Of a stretch of 64,000 nt of DNA, positions 42,001 through 51,000 are shown one piece after another. Origin of the DNA: an uncultured Acidobacteriota bacterium. GTDB taxonomy: Bacteria; Acidobacteriota; Terriglobia; UBA7540. Numbering within the stretch: the first letter of the stretch is position 1; every line of letters starts with the position of its first letter. The DNA is taken from positions 1,600,001 to 1,664,000 of the forward strand of contig CAWDSK010000003.1 in NCBI GenBank assembly GCA_963804995.1, in the 5' to 3' direction. Position numbers: made by a program.

Positions 42001-45000
42001 GCCAAGAACCAATGCGCAAATAACCAGGCGGCGAGAAGGCTACCGGCCAAACCCGCCAGCGCGCCCTCCCAGGTTTTGCGGGGAGAAATACGGGCGAAGA
42101 ACGGTGTGCGGCCCATCGAGCGGCCTATCAGATACGCACAGATGTCGCCTGCCCAAATCACCAGGAACAATAACATGACCAACACGGAGCCGAGGCTCAG
42201 CCCCATCATTTGGATCGGTTCCTTCGAAAGCATCCCGAGATTTCCGAATGAACTATACAAGGCAAAGCGGATTGGCACCAGGCACGAGAGAGCGAAACCG
42301 ATGTACAAAATCCCGAAAATGGTTACCGAAATAGCCGCGAGATAGTCTTTTAAGTCCATGCTCCGCCTCAGAGCCAAGCTGGGAATGAGCAGCAGGAACA
42401 CCCCGAGCATGGGTGCCACCCCAAAGTGGTTAACTTGCCACGGCAAAGCCTGCACCACGCACAGCGCTGCTCCTGCCCCATAGCCGATCCAGGGAAATAC
42501 CTTATAGCCCATGGCGCGGCACAACGCGAAGTACTCGCGCAGGGCGAGCAGTACGCCGGCTACGACTGCGAGCAGGAAGAGCCATTTCGGGGACCACCCA
42601 ATCAGGTATACGACGGGGGGAATCAGCAAAACAGCGGTTAGAGTGCGTTTCAGCATGTGCAGAGAAGAGGGCGAAAATCGAAACTCGAAATTCGAAACTC
42701 GTCGCGATTTTGGGTTCGGGATTTCCTCATTCGGTGGTCAGGCGTTCGATGCGGTTGGTCACTGGGTGACGAAACTTGCAAATCGAATCTTTCCACGATT
42801 TTCGAGTTTCGAATTTCGAGTTTCGGCCTTTCCAGTCAGCTCATCCCCAACCCGCCGTAACGACGCTCCCGCTTTTGGTAATCGATGATGGCTTGAAACA
42901 AATCCATTTGGGTGAAGTCCGGCCAAAGGGTTTCCGTTACCCAGAGCTCAGCATAGGCGATTTGCCAGAGCAGAAAATTACTGAGGCGCAATTCCCCGCT
43001 GGTTCGAATCAAGAGATCCGGGTCGGGCAGATCACGCGTATAAAGATGCGCGTTCAGCATGGCTTCGCTGACCGTTATGGCTCCATTCCGCTGGGAGTCC
43101 GCCAACAACTCGCACACGGCATCCACCAGCTCGGCCCGCGCCCCGTAGTTCAACGCCAAGGTCAGGCGCATACCTTTATTCTGCCGGGTCCGATCCAGAG
43201 CGTTTTGCAAATCTTGCAAGACGGGCTTCGGCAATTCCTGGGTTCGGCCAATGACCCCCAGCCGGATGTTCTGCCGATTCAATTCACCGATTTCCTTCTT
43301 CAGGTATTCCCGCAGCAAACTCATCAAGAGCTTGATTTCCGTGTGCGGCCGCTTCCAATTCTCGACGGAGAAAGCATACAGGGTGAGATACGGGACACCC
43401 AGGCGCGCACACGCCTCGACGGCCTGCCGCACGGCGCTGATTCCGGCGCGGTGGCCGGCGATCCGGGGCAAACGTCGGCGCTTGGCCCACCGCCCGTTTC
43501 CATCCATAATCACCGCGATGTGCCGGGGCAAGCGGTCTAGGTCGACCTGCGCCAGGAGATCTGCTTCGGCAAGTTCCTTCTTCACGCCCACGGGGACCTT
43601 TTGATTTCTCCAGTAAACAGAAAAGTTAACATACCGCTCTATTAACCGCAAGCAGGCTGCGGGTGTGGAGAATCTTGCCGTTCCGTTGCACAATCGCGCG
43701 GGTTCAGGATCCGGCCGGGAGCTGGCTGGGAAAGAAAGAGGTTACGACGAGCATCAAGGTGAGGACGATCATAACGATACAGGTTATCCAAGCGATGACA
43801 TTGAAAGCCCTGCTGTTGCGGTAATTCCCCATGATGTCTTCGCGGTTCGTCAACTGCAACATGAAGATCACCACGAAAGGCAGCAGGATACCGTTGGCCA
43901 CTTGCGAAAGAAGGATGATGGGAACTTGCTGCGCCTCACTGAGCAAGACTACCGCGAGCATGCCCATGAAAATCAAACTGGAATAGAGCCAGTAGAAGGC
44001 CGGCGCTTCTTTGTACCGCTTGTTGATTCCAGATTCCAGCCCCAACCCTTCGCACACGTAATAGGCCGTGGCTAGTGGCAGGATGCAGGCCGAGAATAAT
44101 GAAGCATTGCAAAGCCCCACAGCGAACAAAGCGCTGGCGGCGTGGCCGGCCAGGGGCCGCAAGGCCATGGCCGCATCGCCGGCATCTTTGATGTCCCGGT
44201 GTCCCGTCATGTAGATGGTGGCGGCGCAAGCAACAATAATGAAGAAGGCCACCACGTCCGTCATGATGCAGCCCACAATAACGTCCAGGCGGGAATAAAT
44301 GTAATCCCTAAGTTTCACACCTTTTTCCACCACCGCGGATTGCAAGTAAAACTGCATCCAGGGAGCAATGGTCGTACCCACCAACCCGATGACCATGTAG
44401 AGATAACCCGAGCTGAATTGGAAAGAGGGTTTCACCGTACTCACCAGCGCCCCCGTCCAGTCCGGACGAGCGAGAAAGCACGAGATGGGGTAAGCAAGGT
44501 AGATCACGCAGGCAGCCAGGAAGACTTTCTCCACATGGTGATAAGTTCCCTTGACCACCAGAAGCCAGACGAAGATCGCCCCCAAAGGCACGGCCACGAA
44601 ACGGCTCATGCCGAACACTGACATTCCGGAAGCCAAACCGGCAAACTCAGACACCGTATTCCCCAGGTCCGTGATGATCAGCAGGACCATCAGAATGAAA
44701 GTGGTCCGGAAGCCATATTCCTCCCGGATCAGGTCCGCCAGGCCTTTGCCGGTGACCACGCCCATGCGGCTCACCATCTCCTGCACGATGATCAGGGCCA
44801 CCGTGATCGGAATCAGCGTCCAGAGAAGCGAGAATCCGTATTTTGCGCCTGCGACCGAGTAGGTGTAGATGCCGCCCGCGTCGTTATCGACATTAGCCGT
44901 GATGATGCCGGGGCCGAGAACGGCAACGAAGATCAGCACGCGCGTCCAGAAATGACGAAAATTTTTGCGGTACAATGCGATAGACTCCCTGGCAGAGTTA

Positions 45001-48000: not shown

Positions 48001-51000
48001 TGTTGAAGCCTTGCGCTCAGACTTCCGAATCCCATCATTGCTTGTCGCAAAAGTGACAAAGTGAGATCAAAAACGCGGCGTGCCCCAAGATCAATCGGCT
48101 TGAGAACGGCGAGCACGCCCATCAGGATATCACGGCGCCCACCGGGTGGTCCTCCTGGACGGCACGGTGGGAGGGCAATATCCTCCGACCGCGGCAGGCA
48201 AACTATGTGAGGCACGCCGGAGGACGTTCTCCAGTTTGCTACGAGCCGGTTTTCGCGATCAACAATCCATTTCATTTCTAGCATTTTCTCCTCCGCGTGC
48301 GTTGATTTTGTTTCGCTCATGTTAAGCGCTGGTAATATGCGGTGTTCCCAATCACGACCCACTTTCCCTTGACAGACAATTAAACCCACCCCAACCCCGG
48401 GGTCGATCTAAAACGTCGCTCATCAACCTTTCTGGAGGAAGGCCTGCGGCTCAGGAGGGAACAAATATGCCCTCCCCGCAAACAAGGAAGGGCTAGATCC
48501 GAGGCCGACTACGACAACCGCAAAACGGACGCCGTGAACCGGAATTCCTCACTCGCCCAAGCTTTAGCACCGCGCGCCGTGAGAGGTCTTTCGGCCTCAG
48601 CCACGTTAGGCAAACCCTTAATCCGAGAGTGCCTGTTGTACCCGACTTCAGAGCCTCTTTCGATGCTCTTGGGCAGTGGCCTGTGTGCCGCGCGGGAGCC
48701 TCGCCTACCGAGGATCCGTTTAAATTCTGACTGCACAGCCTGCTGCTTTCACCAAGGCTGCACAGCCCGATTGGCAAGTTACACCGCGTGAAAAAGAACT
48801 GTCAAGAAGAAAAGCCGTCTCTTTCGGTTTTTTTCGAAATTTTCATCCAGGTTAGGCAGCGGAAGGATCCAAACACTTTGTGGAGTTCCTATTCCTATCC
48901 GGCTGGCGAACCCTGATGGGTGGCTATTGAACCTTCATCACCCGGATTCATCTGACCCCTGTCCATAAAGGTCAGGCTCGCGCCGATTGCTGGGCCCCGG
49001 CATGGGTCTTAAGCGCCTGCACGATTCCCCGGCAAAACGCCGGCAAATCCCCGGGCACGCGCGAGGTAATCAGGTTGCCGTCCACTACCACCTCTTCATC
49101 TACGTAGTTGGCCCCGGCGTGAATCATGTCGTCCTTTATCGCGCGGAAGCACGTGGCCTTGCGACCTCGCAGGATGTCCGCCGAGCACAGCACCCACCCG
49201 GCGTGGCAGATGGCAGCGACGATCTTGCCGGCCTTGTCCATGTCGCGAACGAAGTTCAGCATGCGCTCGTCCTGCCGCAGGGTGTCCGGCGCCCATCCGC
49301 CCGGAATGACAACGGCGTCGAAATCCCGCGCGCTAACCTCGGCAATCGACTTATCGGAGACCACGGGGTAACCCTTCTTGCTGATATAAGTCTTCCCTGC
49401 CTCAGCGCCGACGGTCACGGTCGTAGCTCCGTCTTCCTGAAACCGCAGAAGCGGATACCAAACCTCCATCTCCTGATATTGGTCAGCCGCCAAGACGGCG
49501 ATTCGTTTTCCTTGTAAATCCATCGCCCCCTCCTCTCAGGCCATCTATGTTATCACGTACGCTTCCTCCACTCACCGGCCTGGGGCTACTCCAACAAATT
49601 CTCCACCGGCGTGCTGATTGCCGTGTAGGCCTCCGGCTTGCGGTCGCGGAAAAGCGGAAAGTTGCGCCGGGCGGTAAACACCTCTTCGCGTTCGATGTCG
49701 AAGGAAATGATCTCCTCTTCCGTGCCACTGGCCTGGACGGCGATTTTGCCGCGCGGCGTAATGATCATGCTCTTACCTGACATGCGCCATTCACCTTCCC
49801 GGCCCACGTGGTTGCACGCCGCCAAAAATGCACCATTTTCAAGCGCCCGGGTGGTCAGGAAGTTTTCCCACGGATCATCGATGGGAGTGGCATAAGGCGC
49901 AATGATGAACTCCGCCCCGCGAATCGCCAGGCAGCGGCACGATTCCGGAAATAGGTTGTCATAGCAAGTCGAAATGCCCACGGTCCAATCGCCGACTTTG
50001 AAAACCGGGAAGGAAGAGCCACCGCGAAAATAGATCTTCTCCAGACTGAGCAGCGCCGCGGGATGAACCTTGCGGTACTTGCCCGCGATCTCGCCCTGGG
50101 GATTGATCAGCATCGCGGTGTCGTAATAAAGCCCCGCGCGTTCCACCTCGAAAATCGTGGAGACAATCCAGACTTTTAGCTCTTTCGCGCAAGCGCGCAT
50201 CCGCTCGGTGGTGGGCCCGGTGTCCGGCTCCGCGTAGTCCATGTAATGGTAATCGCGGAACTGCGGGAAGTACTCGCAGTTGAAAAACTCGGGGAGGACG
50301 ATAAAGTTGGCGCCCTCCGCGGCGGCGCGCAAAACAAACTGGCTGGCCCGCTCCACGTTTTCATCGCGGGCGGCGGCCCGGCTGTTCATCTGGATCAATG
50401 AGAGTCGCATAGGGGTTCTGGATGGGTCCTTCGGCCCGTTAGAGTTTTTGGCTCATCTTAGAAAGCATGATCAATAACTTGCAATGCGCAACAATCCACA
50501 TAACCTGGTTTTTCGGCACCCTCCCTGGGAAAGGGATAACAATCAAACCCATAGCCCTCTCCTGTGGGGAGAGGGTGGACCGCTGCCGGCGTTTTCATCA
50601 GCCGGAGCGGGACGGGCTTACGCCCACCGAAGGGGCACTTGGGAGCCGTGAACGACTTCGGCTTCGGCCCGCAGGCGGGTGAGGGGTCTCTTCCTGACTG
50701 AACTAACCGCCCCGCGCACCTAATCCTTCGCCGGCTTTAACCCCAAACTCGCCCAGAGGCTATCGACTTTCTTTTTAACTTCCGGGTCCATGACGATTTC
50801 ATCCGGCCAGGGGCGGGTAAAACCTTCGGATGCCCACTTCCGTGTGGCGTCAATTCCCATCTTGGAGCCGAAGTTGGGCAGGCGCGAGGCGTGTTCGAGT
50901 TGGTCGACAGGCCCCAGCGTGAACTGAATATCGCGCTCGGGGTCGATATGGTTCAGGGCTTTCCAGGCGACCTCGCCCGAATCCTGCACATTCACATCGT

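What a model noticed while it worked through the whole genome (the two positions that open the first line are those of the whole stretch)
43704..48719. Mg2+ (M-box) riboswitch operon that starts with an OprB-family outer-membrane porin
One of the two M-box riboswitches (C3:1648541-1648719, minus strand) heads an operon whose first gene is a 534-aa OprB-family porin (g02815), followed by MgtE (g02814/g02813) and an Nramp-type transporter (g02812). I read g02815 as a magnesium-starvation-induced outer-membrane channel for Mg2+ (or divalent cations), giving a riboswitch-controlled route across both membranes in a cation-poor acidic bog. New: OprB porins are known as sugar channels, and no outer-membrane component has been tied to the M-box regulon.
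Evidence so far: rna.tsv: Magnesium RF00380 122.6 bits; call 102: g02815 (Pfam OprB) 257 nt downstream, then g02814 MgtE_N, g02813 CBS, g02812 Nramp on the same strand. Relatives: M-box in 21 of 31 genomes of the order; of 24 loci in other genomes the first downstream gene is the OprB ortholog (71-78% id) in 3 (G053, G040, G017, one genus), MgtE-like in 15, Nramp in 4, none recognised in 2.
(Added by a program. Inside this text positions count along the whole contig: contig position 1,600,001 is position 1 of the stretch shown here. "Call 12" and the like, gene names such as g00115 and contig names such as C1 are that model's own, and its searches are not shown. The text may have been shortened before it was handed on; [...] marks where a part breaks off. 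The agent that wrote the report below was given it as the finding of a first reader that could run no searches.)

Follow-up and report, generated by a model that had tools for sequence, protein, structure and literature searches.

The report
Magnesium riboswitch controlling an outer-membrane porin
In a peat-bog acidobacterium a magnesium-sensing RNA switch sits directly in front of the genome's only OprB-type outer-membrane pore gene, next to an inner-membrane magnesium importer, which suggests that these bacteria open an extra route through the outer membrane when magnesium runs short.

Summary
A full-length M-box (RF00380, 122.6 bits) lies at 48541-48719 (-), followed by a terminator-like hairpin, a short uORF and an OprB-family porin (Pfam 141 bits; the predicted fold best matches P. 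putida OprB).

The porin directly follows an M-box in 36 of 91 M-box-bearing genomes of the order, in two genera. Four genomes of three more genera carry a porin later in an M-box operon. Two genomes give the porin an M-box of its own.

Corrections:
- "MgtE" is one PRC+MgtE_N+CBS gene with no channel domain. It is split by one extra base that a short-read contig lacks.
- The Nramp carries the NRMT magnesium signature. This pair was described by Shin et al. 2014.
- A decayed second M-box with a conserved promoter lies between the porin and the transporter genes. The cluster is therefore probably two transcription units here, and the intact switch mainly governs the porin.

Mg2+ passage through the porin is inferred from regulation and context only. 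Its charge composition shows no cation bias.

The novelty claim needs trimming. The M. tuberculosis M-box already controls PE20/PPE31, and OprB-domain porins are linked to metals in cyanobacteria. I rate this a new variant of a known kind.

The parts
48776..48805 (-). Promoter-like P1: TTGACA, 18-nt spacer, TAACTT, upstream of the M-box
   Evidence: Read from the sequence. A TTGACA-N18-TATAcG/TATAAG element lies at the same distance upstream of the M-box in 16 of 22 loci (regex). It is shared with G023. The consensus scan did not list it.
48541..48719 (-). M-box (Mg2+) riboswitch aptamer, 'type 2' lineage
   Evidence: RF00380, 122.6 bits, full length. It clusters with the type-2 M-boxes that head NRMT2 or TonB-type operons elsewhere, across a branch with support 100.
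48460..48493 (-). Expression platform: hairpin GCCCUUCC..GGGGAGGGC followed by AUAUUUGUU (terminator-like)
   Evidence: Read by eye from the printed leaders, the hairpin arms (3' arm GGGGAGGG(G), once GAGGAGGGG) stand in 10 of 12 type-2 leaders. The tail regex matched a T-rich tail in 5 of 12; the clearest is GGGGAGGGGCUUUUUUGUU in G027c.
48352..48423 (-). Leader uORF, 23 codons (MSDVLDRPRGWGGFNCLSRESGS*), with SD AGAAAGG
   Evidence: An SD+ATG uORF of 18-23 codons stands at the same place in 10 of 12 type-2 leaders. The usual form is M-R/T-N/D-x-x-D-K-P-W...
48039..48284 (-). In-frame N-terminal extension of the porin ORF (82 codons, starts MLEMKWIVDRENRLVANW, SD GGAGGAG), lying before the signal peptide
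   Evidence: The peptide ML.MKW..D.EGRLVA.W is conserved, with synonymous codon changes, in front of OprB porins and one TonB-type barrel. It was found in 16 of 137 genomes. It has no Pfam match and occurs once in this genome.
46680..48038 (-). OprB-family porin: signal peptide plus a beta-barrel that is 16-stranded in its best structural match, P. putida OprB (strand number recalled)
   Evidence: Pfam OprB, 141 bits. AlphaFold2 pLDDT 88.9. Best PDB match is 4gey, P. putida OprB, E 2e-23, TM 0.74. It is the only PF04966 match in the genome.
46586..46598 (-). Weak terminator-like hairpin (5 bp) plus a T-run after the porin stop codon
   Evidence: The region is conserved with G013, G031, G016 and G028. 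Its function is not shown.
46550..46577 (-). Promoter-like P2: TTGACA, 16-nt spacer, TATTAG
   Evidence: A TTGACAAAGG..CGTAT(T/G)AA element stands in the porin-to-PRC spacer in 11 of 22 loci. These include the two genomes where it precedes an intact second M-box.
46418..46485 (-). Remnant of a second M-box (5' part only, profile positions 4-77)
   Evidence: nhmmer with an M-box profile, E 1e-8. Rfam finds nothing here at E<=5. An intact second M-box stands at this place in G013 and G031, and remnants in G016, G017 and G028.
46308..46363 (-). Nested-hairpin, repeat-like element in the spacer
   Evidence: Many unrelated peat-metagenome contigs match only this stretch, at high summed depth (tables 2 and 8).
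44998..46243 (-). One gene for a soluble PRC-barrel + MgtE_N + CBS-pair protein (the NrmT partner). It is read as two ORFs because of one extra base near 45479.
   Evidence: The gene is intact in 36 of 40 loci. A 194-nt short-read contig, otherwise identical to the window, lacks the base ('45479 left out 1', depth 3.8).
43704..44975 (-). NRMT/NrmT-type Nramp-related transporter (Mg2+ importer candidate)
   Evidence: Pfam Nramp, 343 bits. The motifs D-A-G-G and T-T-I-A-P-W fit the NRMT signature DxxG-TxxA/T.

Best explanation
The window holds a two-membrane magnesium-acquisition locus of a peat-bog member of the Terriglobia (Acidobacteriota).

How it is laid out and read:
- Promoter P1 drives a leader that contains an M-box aptamer, a terminator-type hairpin and a short uORF.
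- By the established behaviour of M-boxes, high cytoplasmic Mg2+ compacts the aptamer, the terminator forms and transcription stops. At low Mg2+ transcription reads on.
- The first gene reached is the genome's only OprB-family beta-barrel porin (16-stranded in OprB).
- I propose that the porin is a magnesium-starvation-induced outer-membrane diffusion channel. It would raise the entry of hydrated Mg2+ (and probably other small divalent cations) into the periplasm.
- From the periplasm, the NRMT transporter encoded downstream would carry the ion across the inner membrane, together with its PRC/MgtE_N/CBS partner protein.
- The transporter genes originally had their own promoter (P2) and their own M-box. 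In this genome that second M-box has decayed while P2 remains. The intact riboswitch therefore governs the porin first, and the transporter only by read-through.

Shown here: the riboswitch, the fold and family of the porin, the NRMT signature, and the conserved and repeatedly re-formed linkage.

Inferred: regulation in vivo, the porin's substrate, and read-through into the transporter genes.
For: 1. The M-box is full length at 122.6 bits. A terminator-like hairpin follows it. In 19 of 20 fetched relatives a textbook terminator (CGCCCCUGCGGAG..GCUCCGGGGGGCG plus UUUUGCUUUU) lies between the aptamer and the porin start.

2. The porin directly follows an M-box in 36 of the 91 M-box-bearing genomes, out of 137 searched. 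That is 21 of 24 in genus g1 and 15 of 16 in g5 (coordinates matched).

3. Other arrangements also link the two:
- M-box, NRMT2, (PRC2), porin in G108, G091 and G088.
- M-box, PRC, NRMT, then a distant OprB paralog in G126.
- A distant OprB paralog just upstream of the M-box in G006, G018 and G007.

4. G013 and G031 carry M-box, porin, M-box, PRC, NRMT. There the porin has a riboswitch of its own.

5. Two deeply separated M-box lineages both head a porin: type 1 in most genomes, and type 2 in G000 and G023.

6. The porin-to-PRC spacer is only 12-13 nt in G022, G052, G042 and G055. This implies co-transcription there.

7. The genome has one OprB gene, no CorA and no MgtE channel domain. It has three full Nramp-family matches plus one weak sub-threshold one. 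Two of the three carry NRMT motifs and sit behind the two M-boxes.

8. A recent porin duplicate in G005 sits beside MgtC and a CDF transporter.

9. Precedents: the M. tuberculosis M-box controls pe20-ppe31, which are needed for Mg2+ uptake at low Mg2+ and low pH. OprB-domain porins of Anabaena are tied to metal transit.
Against: - There is no expression data. No RNA run holds the stretch.
- The substrate is inferred only. The mature protein has 43 acidic and 41 basic residues. Net charge in the clade runs from -11 to +5, so there is no acidic bias, and most of the conserved acidic residues are shared with distant relatives that have no M-box.
- Close duplicates of the porin lie without any M-box beside PstS-like binding proteins, a CDF transporter, or unrelated genes. 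The clade may therefore be a general nutrient channel.
- In this genome the U-tract after the hairpin is weak (AUAUUUGUU) and is absent in G023.
- P2 and the decayed M-box mean that the transporter genes may not be under the intact switch.
- The NrmT of A. capsulatum behaved as a Mn2+ transporter.
- The association is confined to one family. M-box was found in 0 of 150 other genomes sampled from the phylum, and no Rfam match lies near 20 more distant porin relatives.
Confidence: 0.6

Rival explanations
1. The porin is a general or sugar diffusion channel with no special tie to magnesium. It was inserted by chance between an existing M-box and its transporter genes, and it is carried along as a passenger.
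For: - Pfam files it as a carbohydrate-selective porin, and the fold matches the sugar channel OprB.
- There is no charge bias.
- Close duplicates sit in unrelated contexts, such as PstS-like, GroEL and FG-GAP genes.
- The direct arrangement is limited to two related genera, so it could stem from one insertion event.
Against: - G013 and G031 keep a separate intact M-box for the porin alone.
- A second M-box lineage heads the porin in G000 and G023.
- Distant OprB paralogs were recruited independently next to M-box/NRMT operons in G126 and G006.
- The porin sits at the end of a different M-box operon in three genomes of two other genera.
- It is the only OprB gene in this genome. A housekeeping sugar pore shut off by ample Mg2+ would be odd.
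Confidence: 0.2
2. The porin is induced at low Mg2+ to stabilise or remodel the outer membrane when Mg2+ bridges between lipopolysaccharide molecules are lost, and not to conduct Mg2+. This would work like OprH of Pseudomonas (recalled from memory).
For: - The regulation by Mg2+ is what the data support.
- Nothing here shows conduction.
- One Anabaena OprB-domain porin (Alr4550) has a structural, envelope-integrity role.
Against: - The model is a large barrel of the OprB/general-porin type (TM 0.74 to 4gey), not a small closed barrel.
- It is genomically tied to inner-membrane importers in several arrangements. That fits a transport chain better than envelope repair.
Confidence: 0.1
3. The module serves manganese or mixed divalent-metal uptake. 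The porin would be an analogue of the Bradyrhizobium Mn2+ channel MnoP, working with an Nramp-type importer.
For: - A. capsulatum NrmT rescued a Mn2+ transport defect and only weakly rescued Mg2+.
- EleNRMT transports both Mn2+ and Mg2+.
- MnoP is cited as a Mn2+ outer-membrane channel.
Against: - The sensor is an M-box, and all M-box-linked Nramp relatives form the NrmT clade.
- The genome has a separate canonical Nramp/MntH-like gene at 444.7 bits.
- It lacks CorA and the MgtE channel domain. The two NRMTs are thus the only Mg2+ importers found among the families searched. MgtA-type ATPases were not searched.
Confidence: 0.1

Closest known systems
B. subtilis ykoK/mgtE M-box riboswitch (RF00380)
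   Same: Same aptamer family over its full length. It is followed by a terminator-type platform and sits in the leader of Mg2+ uptake genes. It is described as a transcriptional OFF switch at high Mg2+ (passage).
   Different: - The first controlled gene is an outer-membrane beta-barrel porin, not an inner-membrane transporter.
- The leader also carries a conserved short uORF.
- The host is a diderm acidobacterium.
M-box-controlled NrmT plus MgtE-N-domain gene pair (Shin et al. 2014, PLoS Genet, PMC4072509; section 11 read)
   Same: An Nramp-related transporter with the NRMT signature lies next to a gene for the MgtE cytoplasmic domain, in an M-box context. The split of that gene into two ORFs is also reported there for C. 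acetobutylicum.
   Different: - That paper has no occurrence of 'porin' or 'outer'.
- Here the partner gene also has a PRC-barrel domain.
- Here the split is a single extra base that a short-read contig lacks.
M. tuberculosis M-box - uORF rv1805A - pe20-ppe31...mgtC operon (RNA 2026, PMC12810186; passages read). It cites Wang et al. 2020, Science, which I did not read.
   Same: - An M-box controls proteins proposed to carry Mg2+ across an outer membrane at low Mg2+ and low pH.
- A conserved short uORF with a conserved proline lies between the aptamer and the first gene.
- There is a link to MgtC; a porin duplicate lies beside MgtC in G005.
   Different: - PE/PPE proteins of the mycomembrane are unrelated to beta-barrel porins.
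- The mycobacterial platform is translational with Rho-dependent termination, whereas here it looks like an intrinsic terminator.
- No sequence comparison of the uORF peptides was possible.
P. putida OprB (PDB 4gey) and OprB-domain porins of cyanobacteria
   Same: Same Pfam family and fold. Anabaena OprB-domain porins are linked to Mn, Zn, Cu and salt transit, and some are induced by Mn deprivation.
   Different: - Only 16% identity to 4gey.
- Controlled by a riboswitch.
- Carries an 82-residue extension ahead of the signal peptide in this genome.
- No SLH domain.
- Substrate untested.
MnoP/MntH of Bradyrhizobium japonicum (Hohle et al. 2011, PNAS). The paper is not held; I know it from citations and from recall.
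   Same: The same logic: an outer-membrane channel for a divalent metal serves the same uptake route as an Nramp-type inner-membrane importer. Their co-regulation under metal limitation is recalled, not seen in the passages read.
   Different: The regulator there is a protein (Mur, recalled), and the metal is Mn2+. The protein family of MnoP was not compared here.

Membership tests
M-box riboswitch (Rfam RF00380) | Covariance-model score above the gathering threshold over the whole model | tested here: met
   122.6 bits against 44, model positions 1-169 of 169.
M-box riboswitch (Rfam RF00380) | Expression platform downstream of the aptamer (a terminator or an SD-sequestering helix) | tested here: met
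   Hairpin at 48493-48469 followed by AUAUUUGUU. The U-tract is weak here. A strong canonical terminator stands in 19 of 20 relatives.
M-box riboswitch (Rfam RF00380) | Mg2+-dependent compaction and termination | not testable with these tools
   Needs in-vitro transcription or structure probing.
OprB porin family (Pfam PF04966) | Profile match above the curated cut-off | tested here: met
   141 bits against 22.9, profile positions 2-372 of 372.
OprB porin family (Pfam PF04966) | Monomeric 16-stranded beta-barrel fold like the solved OprB | tested here: met
   AlphaFold2 pLDDT 88.9. Foldseek top hit 4gey, E 2e-23, TM 0.69/0.74. The strand number and oligomeric state of OprB are recalled, not counted.
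OprB porin family (Pfam PF04966) | Carbohydrate selectivity | not testable with these tools
   No assay was possible, and pore-lining residues could not be read without coordinates.
NRMT / NrmT (Nramp-related Mg2+ transporters) | Binding-site signature DxxG on helix 1 and TxxA/T on helix 6, in place of the methionine-containing site of classical NRAMPs (the DPGN...MPH form is recalled) | tested here: met
   The sequence reads ..DNDAGG.. and ..GTTIAPW... The signature is as stated in the eLife 2022 passages. The first helix-6b histidine is replaced by Trp, as in EleNRMT.
NRMT / NrmT (Nramp-related Mg2+ transporters) | Adjacent gene for the MgtE cytoplasmic domain; M-box context | tested here: met
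   In this genome the nearer M-box is decayed.
NRMT / NrmT (Nramp-related Mg2+ transporters) | Mg2+ transport | not testable with these tools
   An acidobacterial NrmT without an M-box behaved as a Mn2+ transporter.
MgtE Mg2+ channel | C-terminal transmembrane channel domain (PF01769) | tested here: not met
   The two ORFs cover MgtE equivalog positions 25-100 and 97-254 of 450 only. PF01769 has no match anywhere in the genome, which is 92% complete.
MnoP-type divalent-metal outer-membrane channel | Sequence relationship to MnoP | not tested
   No MnoP sequence was at hand, and the paper is not held.

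The most novel reading that the evidence does not exclude
A clade of OprB-family porins in peat-bog Terriglobia is a dedicated, riboswitch-gated outer-membrane entry for hydrated Mg2+. It would be the first beta-barrel porin in any M-box regulon. Its synthesis would be tuned by two further layers that Mg2+ scarcity could act on: a conserved leader peptide (M-x-x-x-x-D-K-P-W...) after the terminator, and a conserved translated extension ahead of the signal peptide (ML.MKW..D.EGRLVA.W), shared with a TonB-type barrel that also stands behind an M-box.
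Probability: 0.3. Interest if true: 0.78.

Novelty: new variant of a known kind. Interest (0 to 1): 0.62.

Why it matters
How Mg2+ crosses the outer membrane is usually taken for granted, as passage through general porins. A riboswitch that specifically turns on a porin would show that outer-membrane permeability to Mg2+ can be limiting and regulated in diderm bacteria of cation-poor, acidic habitats. It would then stand as a Gram-negative counterpart to the PE20/PPE31 route of M. tuberculosis.

It also gives a concrete candidate for testing divalent-cation selectivity in the OprB family, and it widens the known M-box regulon. The locus further records how an operon is built: a porin cassette with its own M-box, then decay or deletion of the second switch. 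Finally, it adds two unexplained conserved peptides to study, a leader uORF and an extension ahead of the signal peptide.

Tried and rejected
- **RNA evidence:** no RNA holder is listed for the stretch. Only small-share peat DNA contigs were found. They were used solely for the single-base check.
- **Rfam in permissive mode** over 46150-48560 found nothing at E<=5. The remnant M-box was seen only with a family-specific nhmmer profile.
- **PDB by sequence:** no meaningful hit.
- **NCBIfam:** only a weak AaxA porin match at 32 bits against a cut-off of 600.
- **Charge analysis of the porin:** no cation-selective signature.
- **Pore lining:** not done, because model coordinates are not exposed to the script box.
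- **The extension ahead of the signal peptide:** no Pfam match at E<=10. Protein database searches found only the query itself or nothing.
- **Reading the extension as a general extended signal peptide of this organism:** rejected, because the motif occurs once in the genome.
- **Earlier findings of this scan:** none for this place or for these words.
- **The frameshift as a real split or a programmed event:** rejected as less likely. The breaks in G000, G025 and G029 lie at different sites (the site in G056 was not examined). A short-read contig lacks the extra base.
- **The MnoP paper** could not be read.
- **Literature searches for an M-box/porin link:** 'M-box+riboswitch+porin+magnesium' gave 1 paper, a general review. 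'OprB+magnesium+riboswitch' gave 3 unrelated papers. 'M-box, riboswitch, outer membrane, Nramp' (at least 3 of the 4 terms) gave 33 papers, of which 15 were listed. None describes a porin.

Full report
**1. The observation**

Rfam's M-box model (RF00380) matches window 48541-48719 on the minus strand. The score is 122.6 bits against a gathering score of 44, over all 169 model positions. The genome holds one other M-box, on contig C6.

Four ORFs follow on the same strand:
- An OprB-family ORF at 46680-48389 (PF04966, E 8e-41).
- An ORF with PRC and the first 71 of 102 positions of MgtE_N (45350-46261).
- An overlapping ORF in another frame with MgtE_N positions 68-101 and CBS (44998-45618).
- An Nramp ORF at 43704-44975 (343 bits).

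The neighbours are a DJ-1/PfpI gene upstream and undecaprenyl-diphosphate synthase downstream.

**2. The leader**

Upstream of the aptamer lies TTGACA-N18-TAACTT (48805-48776). Directly after the aptamer comes a hairpin GCCCUUCC..GGGGAGGGC with the tail AUAUUUGUU (48493-48460). Next comes an SD (AGAAAGG) and a 23-codon uORF (48423-48352).

This platform and uORF are shared with G023, with the genome's second M-box, and with other 'type-2' M-boxes. An SD+ATG uORF of 18-23 codons stands there in 10 of 12 type-2 leaders. Several of these leaders have a clearer U-tract, for example GGGGAGGGGCUUUUUUGUU in G027c.

A tree of 50 M-box aptamers splits them into two lineages, with support 100 on both sides. 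The window's M-box and that of G023 fall in type 2.

In 19 of 20 fetched relatives the porin is instead headed by a 174-nt type-1 M-box. That M-box is followed by a textbook intrinsic terminator (CGCCCCUGCGGAG..GCUCCGGGGGGCG plus UUUUGCUUUU), and the porin's signal peptide begins a few dozen bases later.

That M-boxes switch transcription off at high Mg2+ is established knowledge (passage). It was not tested here.

**3. The porin**

The likely signal peptide (MMGFGSLSARLQHRRLGWAVLLALGISCRGLYG/QD) starts at 48038. This matches where the relatives' proteins start.

An AlphaFold2 model built on 66 sequences has pLDDT 88.9 and is a beta-barrel. Its best solved match is P. putida OprB, 4gey, with E 2e-23, TM 0.69/0.74 and 16% identity.

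It is the only PF04966 match in this genome, which is 92% complete.

Its composition gives no hint of cation selectivity. There are 43 acidic and 41 basic residues in the mature part, and most of the conserved acidic positions are shared with distant relatives. I could not inspect the pore lining.

**4. An unexplained N-terminal extension**

The annotated start at 48284 has a GGAGGAG Shine-Dalgarno sequence. It opens an 82-codon in-frame stretch ahead of the signal peptide.

Its first 18 residues (MLEMKWIVDRENRLVANW) are conserved with synonymous codon changes:
- In front of the porin in G023, G108 and G088.
- In front of a 1275-residue TonB-type outer-membrane barrel that follows a type-2 M-box and uORF in G027.

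A profile of this peptide finds it in 16 of 137 genomes. Where I could match coordinates, it lies upstream of OprB-family genes in the same open frame, including genes with no M-box (G005:C48, G032:C8, G122:C25, G017:C10, G030:C53, G065:C15).

It has no Pfam match, occurs once in this genome, and is almost absent from protein databases. I cannot say what it does.

**5. The 'MgtE' and Nramp genes**

In 36 of 40 loci the PRC, MgtE_N and CBS parts form one reading frame of about 415 residues.

G000 has one extra base (GGAACG where relatives have G-ACG) near 45479. G025 and G029 are broken at another site. G056 is also broken, but its site was not examined.

A 194-nt short-read contig from a peat metagenome is identical to the window except that it lacks exactly that base (tables 4 and 8; depth 3.8). 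I therefore read the split as an assembly error. One contig at low depth is not proof.

The protein covers MgtE equivalog positions 25-254 of 450 and lacks the channel domain. PF01769 and CorA (PF01544) have no match in the genome.

The Nramp reads D-A-G-G and T-T-I-A-P-W at the two binding-site motifs. This is the NRMT signature DxxG-TxxA/T.

Shin et al. 2014 already described M-box-linked NrmT genes with an adjacent MgtE-N-domain gene, split in two in C. acetobutylicum. They also found that an acidobacterial NrmT without an M-box behaved as a Mn2+ transporter.

The genome has three full Nramp-family matches plus one weak sub-threshold match. One is canonical (444.7 bits). The other two are NRMT-like and are the ones sited with the two M-boxes.

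**6. Between the porin and the transporter genes**

The 418-nt spacer is not empty. It holds, in order:
- A weak terminator-like hairpin (46598-46586).
- A promoter-like TTGACA-N16-TATTAG (46577-46550).
- The 5' part of a second M-box (46485-46418; nhmmer E 1e-8, profile positions 4-77).
- A repeat-like nested hairpin (46363-46308).

The promoter and its surroundings are conserved with G013 and G031, where the second M-box is intact. They are also conserved with G016 and G028, which have remnants. G017 has a remnant as well.

The promoter motif stands in this spacer in 11 of 22 loci. In G022, G052, G042 and G055 the spacer is only 12-13 nt.

The history that fits is as follows. A porin cassette with its own promoter and M-box was placed upstream of the older unit of promoter, M-box, PRC and NRMT. 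The second switch then decayed or was deleted.

For this genome, the intact riboswitch governs the porin first. The transporter genes may be read from P2 as well.

**7. How widespread the arrangement is**

In the order, 91 of 137 genomes have an M-box and 88 of 137 have a relative of the porin at E<=1e-20. These tallies include genomes flagged as unpublished: G036 and G120, and G114-G116 and G118-G120. None of the cases below rests on them.

Matching coordinates between the two calls gives these results:
- The porin lies directly downstream of an M-box, on the same strand and contig, in 36 genomes. That is 21 of the 24 M-box-bearing genomes of genus g1 (one with a 5'-truncated porin, G028) and 15 of 16 of genus g5.
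- All 20 fetched relatives show M-box, porin (65-88% identity), PRC/MgtE_N/CBS, NRMT.
- In 14 of 14 further type-1 loci (13 from other genera, plus G047) the M-box heads PRC and NRMT with no porin between them.
- G108, G091 and G088 carry the porin (60% identity) at the end of a type-2 operon, after M-box and NRMT2.
- G126 carries a distant OprB paralog (38%) after NRMT.
- G006, G018 and G007 carry another paralog (39-50%) just upstream of the M-box.

In the porin tree, the family's porins form one clade (support 100) in which M-box-linked and unlinked copies are mixed. The G126 and G006 porins lie in distant OprB clades (a quick search, SH-aLRT support only).

Unlinked copies carry no Rfam match. 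Their neighbours are MgtC and a CDF transporter (G005), a CDF transporter (G032), PstS-like proteins (G025, G028), or unrelated genes.

Outside the order, no M-box was found in 150 sampled genomes of the phylum. Among 80 public loci with porin relatives, an M-box precedes 30. All of those are Terriglobia/Acidobacteriota peat or bog MAGs at 69% identity or more. Twenty more distant loci (Verrucomicrobiota, Terracidiphilus, Binataceae, Roseococcus and others) have no Rfam match.

**8. Reading**

The linkage of an OprB-family porin to M-box/NRMT units is too recurrent to be a passenger effect. It is kept across two genera, re-formed with a second M-box lineage, re-formed with distant paralogs, and in two genomes equipped with a switch of its own.

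The simplest function is a Mg2+-starvation-induced outer-membrane channel feeding the NRMT importer. The habitat is peat, judging from the record titles and the run labels.

What is shown is the regulatory wiring and the protein families. What is inferred is the response in vivo and the substrate.

The rivals cannot be excluded:
- A general nutrient pore. The PstS-like neighbours of duplicates point that way.
- A membrane-stabilising role.
- A manganese role.

**9. Comparison and novelty**

The M-box, the OprB family and the NrmT/MgtE-N pair are all known.

Four full-text searches found no paper tying an M-box to a porin. The library lacks most subscription journals, and supplements were not searched.

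- In M. tuberculosis an M-box controls a conserved uORF and pe20-ppe31, which are needed for Mg2+ uptake at low Mg2+ and low pH. That paper cites Wang et al. 2020 on PE/PPE transport across the outer membrane.
- OprB-domain porins of Anabaena are linked to metal and salt transit.

I therefore rate this a new variant of a known kind: the first beta-barrel porin placed in an M-box regulon, as far as these searches go.

Noticed in passing
window 48352-48423 (-); L003 about 1306-1362; L054 about 837; L075 (reverse-complemented as) about 877: A conserved leader uORF of 18-23 codons (typical form M-R/T-N/D-x-x-D-K-P-W..C..C*) with SD GAAAGG lies right after the terminator hairpin in 10 of 12 type-2 M-box leaders. 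It recalls the M-box-associated uORF rv1805A of M. tuberculosis, which has a conserved proline at position 7.
   Followed up: partly
window 48039-48284 (-); L054 4457-4570; L056 2709-2780; L075 5609-5680 (-): A conserved translated peptide ML.MKW..D.EGRLVA.W starts an 80-110-residue extension ahead of the signal peptide of OprB-family porins and of one TonB-type barrel. It was found in 16 of 137 genomes. It has no Pfam family and its function is unknown.
   Followed up: partly
L075 (G027:C16), M-box 256246-256425 (-) in contig coordinates: A third M-box in G027 heads a uORF, a 1275-residue TonB-type outer-membrane barrel (CarboxypepD_reg + OMP_b-brl_4) and an MFS transporter. This is a second kind of outer-membrane protein behind an M-box.
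   Followed up: partly
L003 (G000:C6:1427338-1430650): The genome's second M-box heads a uORF, an NRMT paralog (35% identical, with the D-A-G-G motif) and its own intact PRC+MgtE_N+CBS gene. The genome shows no CorA and no MgtE channel domain.
   Followed up: partly
window 46308-46363: A nested-hairpin element (GTAGCG..two inner hairpins..CGCTAC) is matched at high summed depth by many otherwise unrelated peat-metagenome contigs. It looks like a dispersed repeat. A similar GGTAGCG...CGCTACC element lies in the leader of L003.
   Followed up: no
window 1602-1891 (+): Group II intron domains (RF02001 at 116 bits, RF01998 at 52 bits).
   Followed up: no
L066 (G005:C48) 4979-8483 (-); L068/L069: M-box-free duplicates of the porin sit in same-strand pairs, either with MgtC and a cation-efflux (CDF) gene or with a 486-510-residue PstS-like binding protein.
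   Followed up: partly
L070 288-1296 (+): Three copies of Acido-Lenti-1 RNA (RF01687, 53-54 bits) lie in about 1 kb near an M-box-free porin in G101.
   Followed up: no
L061 (G028:C57) 1247-2193: An M-box overlaps a porin that lacks its first 184 codons. The deletion removed the terminator region and the 5' part of the gene. G028 keeps another full copy elsewhere.
   Followed up: no
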